DNA of 64,000 nt from Escherichia phage SUT_E1620: sequence record OQ939939; one strand, written 5' to 3'. Under the pieces are notes generated by a model. That model had not been told where the DNA came from and made no database searches. It was given only the letters and a program-made list of their open reading frames with translations. Each line of letters begins with the position of its first letter. Position 1 is the first letter of the stretch. Both the position numbers and the translations under genes were made by a program. Of the stretch, positions 9,596 to 53,686 are shown piece after piece.

Positions 9596-10926
9596 ATTTT
9601 AGCTAATTGTACTGCTTTCTCCGGAGTCATAGTAATAGTTTTCCATGCATTATTGCGATACACGGCCATACGTCCAGAAGCCTGTCTTAAACCAGTACCT
9701 CCTTTCATAATTAAATCTACAACAATCGGATCTAGCTTTCCGTCAACAATACGTTGAACGCGGCCTGCTAACTGTTCTATGAGAGATTCATTATTAATGA
9801 GACTTCCCATTATTAAACAAGACAGCTCGTTAAGAGAAATACCTTCTGAGAAGATACTCTGAGCTGCTGCAAGCACACAGGGTCCGCCCTCCGCTACATC
9901 TTTCTGGATTCTCAATCGGTCATCCAAAGGAGTTGCACCTATAATCTCATAGGTTGTAACACCACGTTGAGCGAGAGCTTCTAGTATTGTTTGAATTAGT
10001 TCTGTTCTATCACTTACAAAGAGAACCTTATGCCCCATAGACACATATAAATGTGCTAAGTTTATAATAGTTTCCCGATATTCAGGATGATTATACACAT
10101 CGTTAGCACGTAATGCCCACGGTACGTTCTGGTTTCCTGATAATTCTACAGGCACGGAGTACCTATGGATTGTGGGTGGAACAGTATTATTAACCGGAGG
10201 ACTAAAGATCTTATATCCAAAGAAGTCTTTGAACATAACTTGTAGCCCATCTTTACGTTTTAATGTACCTGATAGACCGATCTTGTAGCGAGCACATGAG
10301 ATCTCTAGGAAATTAGTGAAAGTTGTAGCTACACAGTGGTGAACTTCATCAACTATAACAGTACCGAATACCTTAGAAAGATTATTCGCATGTTTGTTCA
10401 CTGTTTGTATATTACTGACCACGATTGGTGGATCAATGTTATACTTTCCAGAACCTATAATACCCGGCTCGAATCCAAACCATTTACGAACTTCTGCAGC
10501 CCACATTTCACGAATGGATGTGTTAGTGCAGATTACCAGAGTTTTCTGGCCAAACTTATATGCAAGAGCTAGAGCTAGGATAGTTTTACCAAATCCAGGC
10601 TTACCATTGATAATACAAGTATCATCGCACTCTTCATATATAGGAAGCTGATCTTCCTCACGTAGCTTGAACTGAGGTTCTGGTATTTCTACCGGAGCTA
10701 ACGTGCGTTTGTCAACTAATTCGTATTTTACTCCCTTAGCATCTAGTAAATCTAGACGCGTAATGGGAATCCACTTAATCTCTTTAGCAACAACACCACT
10801 ATTCTTATACATAATAGGGTATTTACTAGTCATTGTCTCGATGTGATAAGTGGTTTGTTTACTACAGTAATCCCAGAGTTCATCATCGGGCTTGAAATAG
10901 GCTTTATTAGATATAACAACCTTCAT
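9574..10926 (-). CDS. DNA helicase, superfamily 2 (T5 D10-like)
   Basis: Walker A GKPGFGKT, DEAH-like DEVHH, helicase C-terminal motifs (QLAGRVQR). Confidence 0.85.
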   Translation of the reverse strand: MKVVISNKAYFKPDDELWDYCSKQTTYHIETMTSKYPIMYKNSGVVAKEIKWIPITRLDLLDAKGVKYELVDKRTLAPVEIPEPQFKLREEDQLPIYEECDDTCIINGKPGFGKTILALALAYKFGQKTLVICTNTSIREMWAAEVRKWFGFEPGIIGSGKYNIDPPIVVSNIQTVNKHANNLSKVFGTVIVDEVHHCVATTFTNFLEISCARYKIGLSGTLKRKDGLQVMFKDFFGYKIFSPPVNNTVPPTIHRYSVPVELSGNQNVPWALRANDVYNHPEYRETIINLAHLYVSMGHKVLFVSDRTELIQTILEALAQRGVTTYEIIGATPLDDRLRIQKDVAEGGPCVLAAAQSIFSEGISLNELSCLIMGSLINNESLIEQLAGRVQRIVDGKLDPIVVDLIMKGGTGLRQASGRMAVYRNNAWKTITMTPEKAVQLAKIAFGNCS

Positions 10927-45122: not shown

Positions 45123-45293
45123 ATGAAATCAGTTGTAATTATTGGTGTTAATACTCGTGGTATCCGTACTACGAAAACAGTTAAAACTACTAACGTTGCT
45201 GAAATTACTACAAACCCTAAGAAGTTTGATTTCGCTAAAGTCTCGGCAGTTATGACAGAACAATCTTTTAACCAAGCACTGGGAATTAAATAA
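45123..45293 (+). CDS. Small hypothetical protein (~56 aa)
   Basis: ATG after GAGAGGAAG RBS downstream of promoter; below track size cut-off. Confidence 0.35.
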   Translation: MKSVVIIGVNTRGIRTTKTVKTTNVAEITTNPKKFDFAKVSAVMTEQSFNQALGIK

Positions 45294-45736
45294 TGGAAGA
45301 GAATATTCTAGATGTTTTGCGTAGGGCTTTGCAGGAATCTAAGGTTGATGGTTCTGATAAAGAAGTAGCTAAAAGCTACCAGACCATAATCGGAGATCTT
45401 CAGCGTGTTGATAAAGACTTCATTACTTCTGAACAGTTTGTATCTTATCTAAAAGCTCAACTGAAAAGCATTAATCAGACGAAAGCTAAACTTCACGGTC
45501 AAGACCTTGATAATTATAGCTTGCAGTCTGCTCAGTATGAGTATATACTGAACAAATGGCTACAACAGTATCTGCCGCCTCAGTTATCTGATTCTGAGAT
45601 TCGCAAATACTTTGCAGAATTAGTTAAGTTGAACCCTGGGATTACAAAAGGTATGCTGATGAAAGCGATTAAGGAAGAGTTTCCTGGTCGTTACGACGGT
45701 GGCATTGCTGCTCAGGTTGCTGGCGAATTTAATTAA
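45293..45736 (+). CDS. GatB/YqeY-domain protein
   Basis: 147 aa; pattern YLPxQLSxxEI...GITKGMLMKAIKEEFPGRYDGGIAAQVAGE parallels YqeY C-terminal region. Confidence 0.55.
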   Translation: MEENILDVLRRALQESKVDGSDKEVAKSYQTIIGDLQRVDKDFITSEQFVSYLKAQLKSINQTKAKLHGQDLDNYSLQSAQYEYILNKWLQQYLPPQLSDSEIRKYFAELVKLNPGITKGMLMKAIKEEFPGRYDGGIAAQVAGEFN

Positions 45737-49129: not shown

Positions 49130-49203
49130 GGGGGTGTAATCGAATTGGCATAGGTACTGGACTTAAAATTCAGGTTTTGTGGGTTCGAATCCCACCACCC
49201 CTA
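49130..49203 (+). tRNA. tRNA with TAA anticodon (Leu-type decoding UUA) but short variable loop
   Basis: Acceptor GGGGGTG/CACCCCT, anticodon stem-loop CTGGA-CTTAAAA-TTCAG, T-loop GTGGGTTCGAATCCCAC, A73, CCA. Confidence 0.6.
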
Positions 49204-49357
49204 CCAAATTAAGGAAATAAAATGAAAGCTATTAAGAAAGCACTACGTAAATTTATGTACTGTCGTTTTCATAGCATCAAGGCTTCAACTAATGGTACGA
49301 CTTACGATCGCTATGATCCTAAGTTTGGCTTACATTCTAAATAACTGGAGATAATAA

Positions 49358-50118: not shown

Positions 50119-50196
50119 TGGGGGATTGGCTCAGTGGCGACGGCGCCTGGCTGTAGACCGGGTATATCACGCGGAGGTTCGAGTCCTCCATCCCCC
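50119..50196 (+). tRNA. tRNA-Tyr (anticodon GTA)
   Basis: Acceptor GGGGGAT/ATCCCCC, anticodon stem-loop CCTGG-CTGTAGA-CCGGG, extended variable region, T-loop GGAGGTTCGAGTCCTCC, CCA. Confidence 0.7.
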
Positions 50197-50207
50197 ACCA
50201 AATTTAA

Positions 50208-51567: not shown

Positions 51568-51755
51568 AAAAGTTAGTCAAATTTAAGTGTTGTGGTTCTG
51601 AACATATCTTCACACGTTTGCGTGAATTTAAAATGTGTAAGTGTGGTAAATCAGGCTATGATGCTGGAGACGGTTATTACTCCCGTACTCTAGGAGATTT
51701 CAACGATTTAGAATTCGTTGATCTCGAAAAACAAGATAAATCGACCGTTGGCTGA
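51564..51755 (+). CDS. Small Cys-rich protein (63 aa)
   Basis: CCGSEH...CKCGKSG zinc-ribbon-like; 3' end overlaps tRNA-Cys. Confidence 0.5.
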   Translation: MKKLVKFKCCGSEHIFTRLREFKMCKCGKSGYDAGDGYYSRTLGDFNDLEFVDLEKQDKSTVG

Positions 51756-51814
51756 ATGGCTTAGGCGGAGGCCTGCAAAACCTCCTTATGTGAGTTCGAA
51801 TCTCATGCGGTCGT
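51742..51814 (+). tRNA. tRNA-Cys (anticodon GCA)
   Basis: Acceptor CGACCGT/GCGGTCG, anticodon stem-loop GAGGC-CTGCAAA-ACCTC, T-loop GTGAGTTCGAATCTCAT, T73, CCA. Confidence 0.7.
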
Positions 51815-51825
51815 CCAAATTTTTA

Positions 51826-51905
51826 GGGTCGTTAGCCAAGCGGTTTGGCGGTGGACTGTTAATCCATGTCGAAAGACAACGTAGGTTCGAATCCTACACG
51901 GCCCG
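51826..51905 (+). tRNA. tRNA with GTT (Asn) anticodon and a 13-nt hairpin variable arm
   Basis: Acceptor GGGTCGT/ACGGCCC, D-stem GCCA/TGGC, anticodon stem-loop GTGGA-CTGTTAA-TCCAT, variable arm GTCGAAAGACAAC, T-loop GTAGGTTCGAATCCTAC, G73, CCA. Confidence 0.6.
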
Positions 51906-52011
51906 CCATATTCTGTGTAGAGTTAAGTAAACCGGTAGCCAACCAGTTATCATTGCTGATATCGAATTCAGTCACAGATACCATTTTTCATTAACAACTG
52001 AGGAAATAGAT

Positions 52012-52197
52012 ATGACAACTCGTGCAATTGCTCGACTAGAAGCTGATCGTGATAGTCTGATTAATAATATTAAGGTTCGTGATAATATTATTAAGGCTCT
52101 GAAAGCTGAACTTCTTGAAGAACTTCAAGGTCAAGTAGAGCGTCGTGAAGCTCTAAAAGAGGTTGAGGAAGCTATCGAAAAACTCAAAGCTGAGTAA
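52012..52197 (+). CDS. Small coiled-coil protein (61 aa)
   Basis: ORF with RBS GAGGAAATAG. Confidence 0.5.
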   Translation: MTTRAIARLEADRDSLINNIKVRDNIIKALKAELLEELQGQVERREALKEVEEAIEKLKAE

Positions 52198-52200
52198 ATT

Positions 52201-52782
52201 ATGCACGGAATATCCTTACCCATTCCAGGGTTTGAGGAGTACTTAGTAAGTTTGGATGGGTTAGTATTTAGTATCAAATCAAACAAAATACTAACCCCAA
52301 TAACCAGTAATTACGGATACTTATCTATACGTCTCCATAAAAATGGTCAACAGAGAAATACCGGTGTACATAGGATTTTAGCATGTGCATTTAAGAAATT
52401 ACCAAGTCTAGACTCTGAACTAGAAGTTGACCATATTAACACAGACATTACTTATTGGGGTCTTAATAACTTACAAGTGCTCACAAAAGAGCAGCATCTA
52501 GAAAAGACTTTAAAAGATAAAGGATTTAGTAAACTAAACCATGATAATTGTTGTAAGGATTGTGGTAAAGCTATTTCTTTAAAAGCTGAAAAATGTCAGG
52601 AGTGCTCTTCACATAAACCAAAAGATATCTCTATAACTAAAGAAATAATCGAGGTTACAGTAAGAGAGCTAGGCTGGTCAGGTGCAGGGAGAAAGTTAAG
52701 TTATTCAGATAATGGGTTGCGTAAAAGATACACTTCTTTAGGAGGCAATCCTAAAGAACTTAAAAAGTTAAAGGTACTATAG
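52201..52782 (+). CDS. HNH homing endonuclease (paralog of 50378..50941)
   Basis: HNH core (EVDHINTDITYWGLNNL), Cys cluster, C-terminal LSYSDNGLRKRYTSLGG. Confidence 0.75.
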   Translation: MHGISLPIPGFEEYLVSLDGLVFSIKSNKILTPITSNYGYLSIRLHKNGQQRNTGVHRILACAFKKLPSLDSELEVDHINTDITYWGLNNLQVLTKEQHLEKTLKDKGFSKLNHDNCCKDCGKAISLKAEKCQECSSHKPKDISITKEIIEVTVRELGWSGAGRKLSYSDNGLRKRYTSLGGNPKELKKLKVL

Positions 52783-52844
52783 TCTAACGGTTAGGATACT
52801 CCCCTGTCACGGGAGAGGTAGGGTTTCGATTACCCTTAGTACCG
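52773..52844 (+). tRNA. tRNA-Asp (anticodon GTC)
   Basis: Acceptor GGTACTA/TAGTACC, anticodon stem-loop CTCCC-CTGTCAC-GGGAG, T-loop AGGGTTTCGATTACCCT, G73, CCA; first 10 nt overlap HNH gene stop. Confidence 0.75.
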
Positions 52845-52853
52845 CCAAATTAT

Positions 52854-52926
52854 ACATCCATAGCTCAATGGTTAGAGCTACCGCCTCTTAAGCGGAGGGT
52901 TCTAGGTTCAAGTCCTAGTGGGTGTA
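52854..52926 (+). tRNA. tRNA-Lys (anticodon CTT)
   Basis: Acceptor ACATCCA/TGGGTGT, D-stem GCTC/GAGC, anticodon loop CTCTTAA, T-loop CTAGGTTCAAGTCCTAG, A73, CCA. Confidence 0.65.
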
Positions 52927-53141
52927 CCAAACATCAGAGCAGCGTGATGTACTGCAAAGACCCAAAGTCCGGGGGGACTTCTTGATTCAAAGGAGCAGGC
53001 ATTAATTATCATTCTAGCGTGGTGGAGAGGGGACACCAGCTTGCCGAGGGTAGAAGCTCGTTCGATTCGAGTGAAAGAATGGTTCTCGTAAATCCGCACA
53101 AGTGATAGCAGGTTCAAGTCCTGCCTAGATTGACTTATTAT

Positions 53142-53212
53142 GCGTTCGTAGTTAAAAGGTATAATTTTTGGTTGCCAACCAGAAGTTGAGGGTTCGATTC
53201 CCTCCGACCGCA
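53142..53212 (+). tRNA. tRNA-Gly (anticodon GCC)
   Basis: Acceptor GCGTTCG/CGACCGC (one mismatch), anticodon stem-loop TTTGG-TTGCCAA-CCAGA, 4-nt variable loop, T-loop GAGGGTTCGATTCCCTC, A73, CCA. Confidence 0.65.
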
Positions 53213-53459
53213 CCAAATTTAGGTTTCTGCTTCCTAGAGAACGGACTCCTAGATAAACAAGGCGATGAGTTTCCGGCCGGTTCTAGTCGCTGAAAATCCT
53301 CCCGACCAGGTAGGTGTAGGTAAACGAAAGTTTACTTATTGAGTAGGTTCCGATAGATCGGCGGATCTATTCTGGCATTTAAGAGAAGTCTCGCAAACTT
53401 CTTTGTCAGCAGAGCGTTTGAAGCGTGAGGTGGCCTACACAATAAGTAAATTTATTAAA

Positions 53460-53505
53460 AACTCATTTGCTATTTCACTTAATTCTCTGTATAATATATC
53501 TTATA
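53460..53505 (+). promoter_or_regulatory. Sigma70-type early promoter upstream of tRNA-Pro
   Basis: TTGCTA (53466-53471), N18, TATAAT (53490-53495). Confidence 0.7.
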
Positions 53506-53527
53506 AAGTGAGTTAACAAAGAATATT

Positions 53528-53602
53528 CTCCGTGTAGCTCAGTTTGGCCAGAGCGTTCCGTTTGGGGCGGTAGGGTCGGGGGTTCAAATCCTCCCACGGA
53601 GA
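53528..53602 (+). tRNA. tRNA-Pro (anticodon TGG)
   Basis: Acceptor CTCCGTG/CACGGAG, D-stem GCTC/GAGC, anticodon loop TTTGGGG, T-loop GGGGGTTCAAATCCTCC, A73, CCA. Confidence 0.75.
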
Positions 53603-53611
53603 CCAAACAAT

Positions 53612-53686
53612 TGCGGGTTAGATCTCTGGTAGAGATCGCTAGTCTCATAAGCTAGAAAGAGGTAGGTTCGATTCCTACACCCGCTT
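53612..53686 (+). tRNA. tRNA with CAT anticodon (Met, fMet or Ile-lysidine)
   Basis: Anticodon stem-loop CTAGT-CTCATAA-GCTAG, T-loop GTAGGTTCGATTCCTAC, 3' ACCCGCT-T-CCA; 1:72 U-U mismatch. Confidence 0.65.

What the first reader, a model, noticed from the sequence alone, without database searches (positions are those of the whole stretch)
51826..51905. tRNA with Asn anticodon (GUU) but a class-II-like 13-nt hairpin variable arm
All stems fold cleanly (7-bp acceptor, 5-bp anticodon stem, canonical T-arm, G73-CCA), and the anticodon loop CUGUUAA gives GUU. Between the anticodon and T stems lies a 13-nt insert (GTCGAAAGACAAC) forming a 3-bp stem with a GAAA loop, which is normally restricted to Leu/Ser/Tyr/Sec tRNAs. 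This could be an identity-switched tRNA, a misacylation device, or a non-decoding tRNA-like RNA.
Basis: seen in the sequence. Interest (0 to 1): 0.55.

Follow-up and report, generated by a model that had tools for sequence, protein, structure and literature searches.

The report
Phage asparagine tRNA with extra arm
This T5-like phage carries a real asparagine tRNA with a small extra hairpin of the kind normally seen only in Leu, Ser and Tyr tRNAs; the same design recurs in hundreds of unrelated phages but almost never in bacteria, so selection keeps the hairpin, although its function has not been tested.

Summary
Window 51826-51908 (+) is an 83-nt tRNA-Asn(GUU) with G73 and an encoded CCA. Its variable region is 13 nt long: a GUC/GAC stem, a GAAA loop and an AAC tail.

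It is not a one-off. More than 520 phage records hold a full-length homologue, in T5-like, T4-like and Phapecoctavirus phages. I collected 111 distinct long-arm tRNA-Asn sequences from viral contigs and tRNA arrays.

- **Conservation:** the extra helix covaries (60 different stems, mostly capped by a GNRA loop).
- **Distribution:** variable-region lengths are bimodal. About 16% of motif-matching phage tRNA-Asn genes are long-armed. None was found in 5,426 E. coli genomes, and only 30 loci in 185,579 species.
- **Identity:** the family keeps the full Asn identity set (GUU plus G73). Most members classify as Asn by body sequence; the window copy itself is ambiguous but not class II. The arm geometry resembles Tyr, not Ser.

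An identity switch or mischarging is therefore not supported. The best reading is an Asn-decoding phage tRNA whose extra arm is under selection.

I suggest the arm makes the tRNA a poor substrate for host tRNA nucleases. This rests only on analogy and is untested. The published PARIS rescue data concern a different, class-I tRNA-Asn allele in T5 itself.

I found no paper describing this arm.

The parts
51826..51908 (+). Whole tRNA-Asn(GUU) gene, 83 nt including the encoded CCA
   Evidence: ARAGORN; Rfam RF00005 at 59 bits; cloverleaf minimum-free-energy fold
51826..51832 (+). Acceptor stem 5' strand GGGUCGU. It pairs with 51898-51904 (ACGGCCC). The first pair is G1-C72, and there is one U4-G69 wobble.
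   Evidence: Sequence; ARAGORN bracket structure
51835..51849 (+). D arm: 4-bp stem GCCA/UGGC with a 7-nt loop AGCGGUU. This is a class-I-type D arm.
   Evidence: T4-like homologues instead have a 3-bp stem and a longer loop.
51851..51867 (+). Anticodon arm GUGGA-CUGUUAA-UCCAU, with anticodon GUU at 51858-51860. It differs from the E. coli tRNA-Asn arm (GCGGA-CUGUUAA-UCCGU) by one base pair (28-42).
51868..51880 (+). Variable region of 13 nt: stem 51868-51870 (GUC) pairs with 51875-51877 (GAC), GAAA tetraloop at 51871-51874, unpaired tail AAC at 51878-51880. C51880 is the likely partner of G15 in the 15-48 pair.
   Evidence: Fold; covariation in homologues; 15:48 is G:C or A:U in 64 of 111 family members
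51881..51897 (+). T arm GUAGG-UUCGAAU-CCUAC
51905..51908 (+). Discriminator G73 and genome-encoded CCA
   Evidence: G73 occurs in 101 of 111 long-arm Asn tRNAs.
51742..51817 (+). Neighbouring tRNA-Cys(GCA), 8 nt upstream. In phage T5 a homing-endonuclease gene lies between tRNA-Cys and a different tRNA-Asn allele.

Best explanation
This is a functional, phage-encoded asparagine tRNA. It belongs to a large, almost phage-restricted family of tRNA-Asn(GUU) genes that carry a short extra hairpin in the variable region.

**Shown.** The gene folds as a normal cloverleaf with an Asn anticodon loop, G73 and CCA. The extra helix (0-1 nt, a 3-4 bp stem, usually a GNRA loop, then a 3-4 nt tail) is maintained by compensatory changes across more than 100 distinct sequences. 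Across the family, the body outside the arm is mostly Asn-like.

**Inferred, decoding.** Host AsnRS charges the tRNA through GUU plus G73, and it decodes AAC/AAU during infection. It would supplement or replace host tRNA-Asn.

**Inferred, role of the arm.** The arm protrudes from the junction of the anticodon stem and the T stem, 3-4 nt from the 40|41 site where the PARIS nuclease AriB cuts host tRNA-Asn. I propose that it makes the phage tRNA a poor substrate for host nucleases that dock on the anticodon stem and tRNA core, while leaving the synthetase determinants untouched. This last step is the most likely function in my view, but it rests only on analogy.

**Confidence by step.** About 0.9 that this is a genuine, selected long-arm tRNA gene; about 0.8 that it is charged with Asn; about 0.35 that the arm serves nuclease evasion. 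The overall figure of 0.55 is for the statement as a whole.
For: **A real tRNA.**

**Conserved and widespread.**
- 560 phage records match and 520 hold a full-length homologue, spanning Demerecviridae, several Straboviridae genera and Phapecoctavirus.
- At least 120 viral contigs match a long-arm pattern.
- There are 111 distinct sequences with 60 distinct stems and 62 GNRA loops. Mean stem length is 3.50 bp against 2.76 in shuffles.
- All 4 pairs of the extra helix change on both sides. The whole structure is 95.6% paired, against 74% in shuffles and 32-42% in slid controls.

**A discrete class, enriched in phages.**
- Gap lengths are 9-11 or 16-24 nt with nothing between; 19 of 120 hits are long.
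- Other class-I isotypes in the same kind of loci carry a long hairpin in about 2% of cases.
- No match in 5,426 E. coli genomes, whereas the class-I host gene is present in 5,425 of them.
- Only 30 loci in 185,579 species, and 10 of the 16 confirmed ones lie in dense tRNA arrays.

**Asn identity.**
- GUU plus G73 is the E. coli Asn identity set (PMC9976931). G73 and the loop CUGUUAA are as frequent as in class-I Asn tRNAs.
- 70 of 90 members classify as Asn by body sequence.

**Defence link, by analogy only.**
- Host tRNA-Asn(GUU) is an AriB target cut at 40|41, and T5's own tRNA-Asn helps neutralise PARIS (PMC12409363).
- At the same locus, T5 has a class-I allele with a disrupted anticodon stem and a lost UAAU motif, while the long-arm allele keeps UAAUC|C. 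These look like two different departures from the host tRNA.
- The variable loop of a T5-like tRNA-Tyr is required to escape Retron-Eco7 (PMC12673091).
Against: - There is no direct evidence of expression, charging or nuclease resistance for this allele.
- The published PARIS rescue used T5's class-I allele, not this one.
- The only tested phage with a long-arm allele, Bas34, carries a chimeric and probably dead copy, so it is uninformative.
- The window copy has G1-C72 rather than the U1-A72 usual for bacterial tRNA-Asn. Its body scores no higher for class-I Asn than for Trp or Lys.
- Class II synthetases approach tRNA from the variable-loop side (my own knowledge), so an extra arm could hinder AsnRS.
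- The family occurs in phages of very different hosts, where PARIS-like systems may be absent.
- The environmental members were collected with a pattern that fixes the anticodon stem. Their host-like stem is therefore partly a selection artefact.
Confidence: 0.55

Rival explanations
1. It is an ordinary Asn-decoding tRNA, and the extra arm has no defence role. The arm would stabilise the tRNA core, for example in rapidly made and under-modified phage tRNAs that lack m7G46. Alternatively it is simply a tolerated legacy insertion kept for folding.
For: The short stems are mostly capped by stable GNRA loops, which fits a purely structural element. Phage tRNAs break the class rules in both directions: the window has a tRNA-Leu(UAA) with a 5-nt variable loop, and 23 of 50 phage Leu tRNAs are short. 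This suggests relaxed constraints on the variable region. No data link the arm to a nuclease.
Against: A neutral insertion would not show compensatory changes in every pair across more than 100 sequences, nor a sharply bimodal length distribution. Asn is enriched about 7-fold over other class-I isotypes. The near-absence from cellular genomes also needs a phage-specific selective reason.
Confidence: 0.28
2. It is an identity-switched or dual-identity tRNA. The arm plus G73 would let SerRS, which ignores the anticodon, put Ser on a tRNA that reads Asn codons. TyrRS or LeuRS might do the same.
For: [quoted passage not shown] The window copy has G2-C71 and C11-G24. From memory, these are E. coli Ser acceptor-stem and D-stem elements.
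Against: - The arm has a 3-4 bp stem and a 3-4 nt 3' tail. The 135 phage Ser tRNAs in the same loci have 4-7 bp stems and a 1-nt tail.
- The number of paired and unpaired bases in the arm matters for class II recognition.
- GUU plus G73 is the full Asn identity set.
- G73 is an antideterminant for TyrRS and LeuRS.
- Only 1-5 of 90 bodies classify as Ser.
- It is the only tRNA-Asn in this phage's 27-tRNA set, and a widespread family that mistranslated every Asn codon is unlikely to persist.
Confidence: 0.06
3. It is a non-decoding decoy. The tRNA-like RNA would bind and titrate a host tRNA-targeting nuclease. It resembles both host tRNA-Asn (anticodon arm) and host tRNA-Tyr (variable arm).
For: The PARIS authors raise the possibility that over-expressed viral tRNAs inhibit AriB by competition. 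The window's variable region has the same length (13 nt) and the same GUC/GAC stem as that of E. coli tRNA-Tyr, and Retron-Eco7 cuts tRNA-Tyr in that region.
Against: All features needed for charging and decoding are intact and conserved: the acceptor stem, G73, CCA, the U33-GUU-A37 loop and the T loop. A pure decoy would not need them. A shared 3-bp stem can easily arise by chance.
Confidence: 0.08
4. It is a chance match or a decaying pseudogene in a tRNA cluster.
For: T5-like tRNA clusters do contain tRNA-like remnants (T5 'rna3') and chimeric tRNAs (Bas34).
Against: The gene scores 59 bits against Rfam tRNA, is 100% identical in more than 200 phage genomes, and shows covariation in every helix.
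Confidence: 0.02

Closest known systems
E. coli host tRNA-Asn(GUU), genes asnT/U/V/W
   Same: The anticodon loop CUGUUAA, G73 and CCA are the same. The anticodon arm is identical in the T4-like homologues and differs by one base pair in the window copy.
   Different: The host tRNA is 76 nt with a 5-nt variable loop (AUGUC) and U1-A72. The phage tRNA is 83 nt with a 13-nt hairpin arm and G1-C72. BLAST finds no similarity outside the shared motifs.
Phage T5 tRNA-Asn(GUU), T5t17, the allele used in the PARIS rescue experiments
   Same: It occupies the same locus, downstream of tRNA-Cys and upstream of 'rna3' and tRNA-Asp. It has the same anticodon, G73 and CCA, and homology resumes in the T arm.
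   Different: The T5 allele is 78 nt and class I. Its anticodon stem has U-U and G-A mismatches and reads UAAG instead of UAAU. A homing-endonuclease gene precedes it and overlaps its 5' end. The 5' 58 nt are not homologous to the window gene.
Bacterial tRNA-Tyr, a class II tRNA
   Same: The arm geometry matches: 0-1 nt, about a 3 bp stem, then a 3-nt tail. The E. coli variable region C-GUC-AUC-GAC-UUC is also 13 nt with the same GUC/GAC stem.
   Different: tRNA-Tyr has anticodon GUA and A73. The window tRNA has GUU and G73. Tyr arms are rarely capped by GNRA loops (5 of 66, against 62 of 111 for Asn). Only 2-3 of 90 bodies classify as Tyr.
T5-like (SP15) tRNA-Tyr, whose altered variable loop is needed to escape Retron-Eco7
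   Same: It is a phage tRNA in the same gene cluster that differs from its host counterpart in the variable region. That region matters for evading a tRNA-cutting defence (PMC12673091).
   Different: It is a different isotype, and the defence nuclease cuts inside its variable loop. For tRNA-Asn no nuclease is known to act there, and nothing has been tested.
Nematode nev-tRNAs and bacterial allo-tRNAs: tRNAs with a long arm and an anticodon that does not match their charging identity (from my own knowledge)
   Same: They also combine a long variable arm with an anticodon from a class-I codon box.
   Different: Those tRNAs have Leu- or Ser-type bodies and identity elements and are charged accordingly. 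Here the body and the identity set are Asn-type.

Membership tests
tRNA (Rfam RF00005) | Cloverleaf that scores above the family's gathering threshold | tested here: met
   59 bits against a gathering score of 29, E 2.6e-12, full model 1-71. ARAGORN also calls it.
tRNA (Rfam RF00005) | Conserved core nucleotides: U8, A14, G18G19, U33, the T loop UUCGAAU, and a 3' CCA | tested here: met
   Read directly from the sequence and the ARAGORN structure.
Bacterial tRNA-Asn | Anticodon G34 U35 U36 | tested here: met
   GTT at 51858-51860 in the loop CTGTTAA.
Bacterial tRNA-Asn | Discriminator G73, which together with the anticodon forms the E. coli AsnRS identity set | tested here: met
   G at 51905. 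The identity set is taken from PMC9976931.
Bacterial tRNA-Asn | Class-I architecture with a 4-5 nt variable loop | tested here: not met
   The variable region is 13 nt with a 3-bp hairpin.
Bacterial tRNA-Asn | U1-A72 first pair, which is typical and required by GatCAB but not by AsnRS | tested here: not met
   The window copy has G1-C72. 69 of 111 family members have U1-A72.
Bacterial tRNA-Asn | Body sequence outside the anticodon resembles Asn tRNAs | tested here: inconclusive
   For the family, 70 of 90 classify as class-I Asn. For the window copy, class-I Asn ranks below Trp and Lys.
Bacterial tRNA-Asn | Aminoacylated with asparagine | not testable with these tools
   This needs an aminoacylation assay or analysis of charged tRNA from infected cells.
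Class II tRNAs (Leu, Ser and bacterial Tyr) | Variable region longer than 10 nt that forms a stem-loop | tested here: met
   13 nt with a covarying helix.
Class II tRNAs (Leu, Ser and bacterial Tyr) | An anticodon for Leu, Ser or Tyr | tested here: not met
   The anticodon is GUU.
Class II tRNAs (Leu, Ser and bacterial Tyr) | Discriminator A73 for Leu and Tyr | tested here: not met
   The discriminator is G73, which is an antideterminant for LeuRS and TyrRS.
Class II tRNAs (Leu, Ser and bacterial Tyr) | Ser-type arm: a long stem with about 1 unpaired nt on the 3' side | tested here: not met
   The window arm has a 3-bp stem and a 3-nt tail. The 135 Ser tRNAs in the same loci have 4-7 bp stems and mostly a 1-nt tail.
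Class II tRNAs (Leu, Ser and bacterial Tyr) | 3-bp D stem with an enlarged D loop | tested here: not met
   The window copy has a 4-bp D stem and a 7-nt loop. The T4-like homologues do have the 3-bp form.
Phage counter-defence tRNAs (T5 tRNA-Lys, Thr and Asn against PARIS; T5-like tRNA-Tyr against Retron-Eco7) | Phage-encoded copy of a host tRNA that a defence nuclease cleaves | tested here: met
   Host tRNA-Asn(GUU) is an AriB target (PMC12409363). The gene lies in the T5-like tRNA cluster.
Phage counter-defence tRNAs (T5 tRNA-Lys, Thr and Asn against PARIS; T5-like tRNA-Tyr against Retron-Eco7) | Sequence change at or next to the nuclease's cleavage site | tested here: inconclusive
   U36AAUC|C41 is unchanged. 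Only the 28-42 pair differs from the host, and the arm starts at position 44.
Phage counter-defence tRNAs (T5 tRNA-Lys, Thr and Asn against PARIS; T5-like tRNA-Tyr against Retron-Eco7) | Demonstrated resistance to cleavage, or rescue of infection | not testable with these tools
   Published tests used T5's class-I allele. Bas34's long-arm copy is chimeric.

The most novel reading that the evidence does not exclude
Phages have evolved a general tRNA design that, as far as I could find, has not been described. A short hairpin, usually GNRA-capped and followed by a 3-4 nt tail, is inserted into the variable region of class-I tRNAs. It is commonest in Asn and also occurs in Cys, Trp, Thr and Ile, sometimes next to a class-I copy of the same isotype. 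Under this reading the hairpin acts as a steric shield or identity mark. It would let phage tRNAs escape host tRNA-targeting immune nucleases while host synthetases still charge them.
Probability: 0.3. Interest if true: 0.8.

Novelty: new variant of a known kind. Interest (0 to 1): 0.55.

Why it matters
Textbook tRNA classification reserves long variable arms for Leu, Ser, bacterial Tyr and Sec. A large, structurally conserved and almost phage-only family of long-arm tRNA-Asn genes is a clear exception, and it is already present in hundreds of sequenced phage genomes.

tRNA cleavage is now recognised as a major anti-phage strategy (PARIS, retron Eco7, PrrC and others), and phage tRNAs as countermeasures. 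So far only point changes in the anticodon arm and one variable-loop change in tRNA-Tyr have been tied to escape. If the extra arm is a shield, it is a new, modular escape mechanism and a simple experimental handle: delete or transplant 10 nt. It would also mark counter-defence tRNAs in metagenomes.

If the arm is not a shield, the family still shows that AsnRS, EF-Tu and the ribosome accept a class-II-like Asn tRNA. That is useful for tRNA engineering.

Tried and rejected
- **BLAST against E. coli.** Searching the tRNA against 5,426 E. coli genomes gave only weak tRNA-Lys-like hits, so no host source was found.
- **First variable-length parse.** My first parse of ARAGORN brackets was wrong when the arm was itself bracketed. 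It was replaced.
- **Nearest neighbours by identity.** This did not point to a Ser or Tyr ancestor. It was replaced by a position-weight isotype classifier.
- **Covariance-model alignment A2.** It mixed in Tyr, Ser, Cys and Lys tRNAs, so I did not count pairs on it. I used a gap-free 49-column alignment of 37 Asn sequences instead.
- **The T5 assumption.** I first assumed that the T5 tRNA-Asn of the PARIS paper was this gene. Checking NC_005859 showed a different, class-I allele, so that experimental support was withdrawn.
- **Bas34.** I tracked down Bas34 (SelmaRatti, MZ501103) hoping for a natural test of the long-arm allele against PARIS. Its copy is a chimera with a broken acceptor stem, so it is uninformative.
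- **Literature.** Searches for any description of a long-arm phage tRNA-Asn found none. The PARIS specificity paper and the eLife phage-tRNA paper never mention the variable region.
- **Supplementary files.** None were held for the PARIS paper.

Full report
**1. The observation**

The window holds a T5-like tRNA cluster of 27 tRNA genes between 46.6 and 58 kb. ARAGORN calls tRNA-Asn(gtt) at 51826-51908. Rfam's tRNA model scores 59 bits against a gathering score of 29, and places a 10-nt insertion in the variable region. The minimum-free-energy fold is the cloverleaf plus an extra 3-bp hairpin, at -30.5 kcal/mol and z = -2.3.

Read base by base, the gene is:
- acceptor stem GGGUCGU/ACGGCCC
- D arm GCCA-AGCGGUU-UGGC
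- anticodon arm GUGGA-CUGUUAA-UCCAU
- variable region GUC-GAAA-GAC-AAC at 51868-51880
- T arm GUAGG-UUCGAAU-CCUAC
- G73 and an encoded CCA

No alternative fold gives a class-I tRNA.

**2. The gene is not an isolated oddity**

BLAST against 50,697 phage records found 560 with a match, and 520 cover at least 80% of the query. Of these, 207 are at least 99% identical; these are T5-like phages of Salmonella, Escherichia and Klebsiella. About 220 are 60-80% identical.

The distant matches include T4-like Straboviridae (Winklervirus CHI14, Karamvirus CC31 and PG7, Bragavirus, Roskildevirus), a Phapecoctavirus and Proteus Novosibvirus PM135. All of them have GUU, G73, CCA and an extra hairpin, but the stems differ: GUC/GAC, GUUC/GAAC, AUCC/GGAU and GUCA/UGAC.

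I then scanned IMG/VR for the Asn anticodon arm followed by a long gap and the T arm. Together these searches gave 111 distinct long-arm tRNA-Asn sequences.

**3. The arm is under selection**

Across the 111 sequences the variable region has a consistent layout:
- 0-1 unpaired nt on the 5' side
- a 3-4 bp stem, with 60 distinct stem sequences
- a 4-nt loop that is GNRA in 62 cases (GAAA in 46)
- a 3-4 nt tail on the 3' side

Mean stem length is 3.50 bp, against 2.76 in shuffled variable regions; the highest of 200 shuffles was 2.95.

I also counted pairs on a gap-free alignment of 37 members with a 15-nt variable region. All four pairs of the extra helix change on both sides. The inner three pairs are paired in 97-100% of sequences and use 3-5 pair types each, which is as good as the T stem. 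The whole structure is 95.6% paired, against 73.8% in shuffles (0 of 500 reach it) and 32-42% when the partners are slid.

The last variable nucleotide covaries with position 15: G:C or A:U in 64 of 111. This is what a normal 15-48 tertiary pair would give.

**4. A discrete and almost phage-only class**

A scan that allowed any gap from 7 to 24 nt returned 101 loci with gaps of 9-11 nt (class I) and 19 with gaps of 16-24 nt. Nothing fell in between. About 16% of phage-contig tRNA-Asn genes with this motif are therefore long-armed. This is a lower bound for truly phage-encoded genes, because some class-I hits are host genes at prophage ends.

In the loci chosen through class-I Asn genes, other class-I isotypes carry a long hairpin in only about 12 of 520 cases.

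In cellular genomes the picture is very different:
- The long-arm pattern found 30 loci in one genome for each of 185,579 species.
- ARAGORN confirmed 16 of these as long-arm Asn, and 10 of the 16 lie in dense tRNA arrays of 7-25 tRNAs within 2 kb, for example in Micromonospora.
- No E. coli genome out of 5,426 holds anything similar.
- By contrast, the class-I host tRNA-Asn is present in 5,425 of those genomes, at a median of 4 copies.

**5. Amino-acid identity**

E. coli Asn identity is the anticodon plus G73. G73 is also an antideterminant against TyrRS and LeuRS (PMC9976931).

The long-arm family matches class-I phage Asn tRNAs in these features:

| Feature | Long-arm Asn | Class-I Asn |
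|---|---|---|
| G73 | 101 of 111 | 84 of 97 |
| Loop CUGUUAA | 109 of 111 | 96 of 97 |

A position-weight classifier built on 54 structurally aligned positions, without the anticodon, has a self-accuracy of 0.87. It assigns 70 of 90 long-arm members to class-I Asn. With the whole anticodon arm masked it still assigns 51 of 90. Only 1-5 go to Ser, 2-3 to Tyr and 1 to Leu. The window copy, which has G1-C72, is less typical: after the long-arm class it scores about equally for Trp, Lys and class-I Asn. It does not score as a class II tRNA.

Arm geometry was compared within the same loci:

| Isotype | Stem | 3' tail |
|---|---|---|
| Ser | 4-7 bp | mostly 1 nt |
| Leu | 3-4 bp | 2 nt |
| Tyr | about 3 bp | 3 nt |
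| Long-arm Asn | 3-4 bp | 3-4 nt |

The Asn arm is therefore Tyr-like and not Ser-like. The E. coli tRNA-Tyr variable region (C-GUC-AUC-GAC-UUC) even has the same length and the same stem as the window's.

Serine identity depends on the arm and not on the anticodon, so SerRS is the only serious mischarging risk. The arm geometry argues against it. The identity-switch reading is not supported, although only an aminoacylation assay can exclude it.

**6. The link to defence, and a correction**

[quoted passage not shown] Co-expression of the T5 Lys, Thr and Asn tRNAs rescues cells (PMC12409363).

I first took that T5 tRNA-Asn to be this gene. It is not. Phage T5 (NC_005859) has a 78-nt class-I tRNA-Asn at the same locus. 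Its anticodon stem has U-U and G-A mismatches, and it reads UAAG in place of the UAAU motif. A homing-endonuclease gene (T5.069) precedes it and overlaps its 5' end.

Homology between the window and T5 covers tRNA-Cys and then resumes in the T arm of tRNA-Asn. The 58 nt in between are unrelated. The T5-type allele is in 152 phage records, and the long-arm allele at 90% identity or more is in about 284. T5-like phages thus carry one of two alternative alleles, each departing from the host tRNA in a different way. One has an altered anticodon stem. The other keeps a near-host stem, with UAAUC|C intact, and adds an arm that starts three nucleotides after the AriB cut site.

A precedent exists for variable-region remodelling: the enlarged variable loop of a T5-like tRNA-Tyr is required to neutralise Retron-Eco7 (PMC12673091). 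These points make a nuclease-shield function plausible. They are analogies and not tests.

**7. A natural test that failed**

The PARIS paper notes that phage Bas34 needs T5's tRNA-Asn although it encodes its own. Bas34 is SelmaRatti, MZ501103. Its gene has the long-arm 5' part. From the T loop onward, however, it is fused to the 3' part of a tRNA-Met, through a 1.76-kb deletion corresponding to window 51899 to 53662. This leaves three mismatches in the acceptor stem. The copy is probably dead. That explains the published puzzle but says nothing about what the arm does.

**8. Verdict**

This is a real and conserved tRNA-Asn gene of an unusual architecture: class-I identity with a class-II-like arm. 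Databases already annotate it as tRNA-Asn. The arm, its covariation and its phage-restricted distribution are not discussed in any paper I could find.

I rate it a new variant of a known kind, with moderate interest. The anomaly is solid and easy to test. Its function remains inferred.

Noticed in passing
window 49130-49206 (+): tRNA-Leu(UAA) is only 77 nt, with a 5-nt variable loop (GUUUU) and A73. It is a Leu tRNA that has lost the class II arm. In phage loci chosen independently of Leu, 23 of 50 Leu tRNAs are short. This fits E. coli LeuRS not needing the arm.
   Followed up: partly
window 51822-51883 compared with NC_005859 33952-34524 (L262): T5-like phages carry two alleles at the tRNA-Asn locus. 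In the window, the long-arm gene lies 8 nt after tRNA-Cys. In T5, a homing-endonuclease gene (GIY-YIG/T5orf172-type) is followed by, and overlaps, a class-I tRNA-Asn. The endonuclease may spread its linked allele by co-conversion, which could account for the two alleles without any role for defence systems.
   Followed up: partly
L270 (MZ501103, phage SelmaRatti = Bas34) 10600-10682: This is a chimeric tRNA: the 5' part of the long-arm tRNA-Asn is joined at the T loop to the 3' part of a tRNA-Met by a 1.76-kb deletion, and the acceptor stem has 3 mismatches. It probably explains why Bas34 needed T5's tRNA-Asn in the PARIS study despite encoding a tRNA-Asn.
   Followed up: yes
window 51911-51980 (+): This is the homologue of T5 'rna3', annotated as a putative tRNA-like RNA. 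It has a 6-bp acceptor-like stem and a T-arm-like hairpin, but neither ARAGORN nor Rfam calls it, and its fold is weak (z = -1.6). It looks like a decayed tRNA.
   Followed up: partly
window 45293-45736 (+): A 147-aa ORF about 0.9 kb upstream of the tRNA cluster gives a weak match to the YqeY/GatB-tail tRNA-binding domain (PF09424, E 1.7e-5, 25.4 bits against a cut-off of 27). By position it appears to correspond to T5.081, annotated 'tRNA amidotransferase'. GatB acts on tRNA-Asn and tRNA-Gln, so a link to the phage tRNAs is conceivable.
   Followed up: partly
L049, L050, L015 and L023 (IMG/VR contigs of 64-405 kb): Some environmental phage tRNA arrays hold long-arm versions of Cys, Trp, Thr(UGU) and Ile(GAU). 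Most have a similar layout (short stem, often a GNRA loop, usually a 3-4 nt tail). They often sit beside a class-I copy of the same isotype and share a similar T arm, which suggests the scaffold is reused by duplication and anticodon change.
   Followed up: partly
L105, L027, L211, L253, L030 and other loci: ARAGORN calls Ile tRNAs (many as Ile(tat)) with very long variable regions (up to 29 nt) that contain a hairpin with a 7-nt loop CAGATAA or CAGATTA. This resembles a second anticodon-like loop reading GAU. I have no explanation; it may be a mis-called arm or an intron-like insert.
   Followed up: no
window 50120-50200 (+): The phage tRNA-Tyr(GUA) is 81 nt, with a variable region of about 9 nt that forms no clear hairpin and an anticodon loop CUGUAGA (G37). 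It differs from the E. coli tRNA-Tyr, which is 85 nt with a 13-nt hairpin arm.
   Followed up: no
L159 (Azoarcus sp. L1K30) 114-200: A cellular tRNA-Asn matches the long-arm pattern only because of a tandem duplication (CCGTAGGTC-AT-CCGTAGGTC) in its variable loop. It is not a member of the hairpin family.
   Followed up: no
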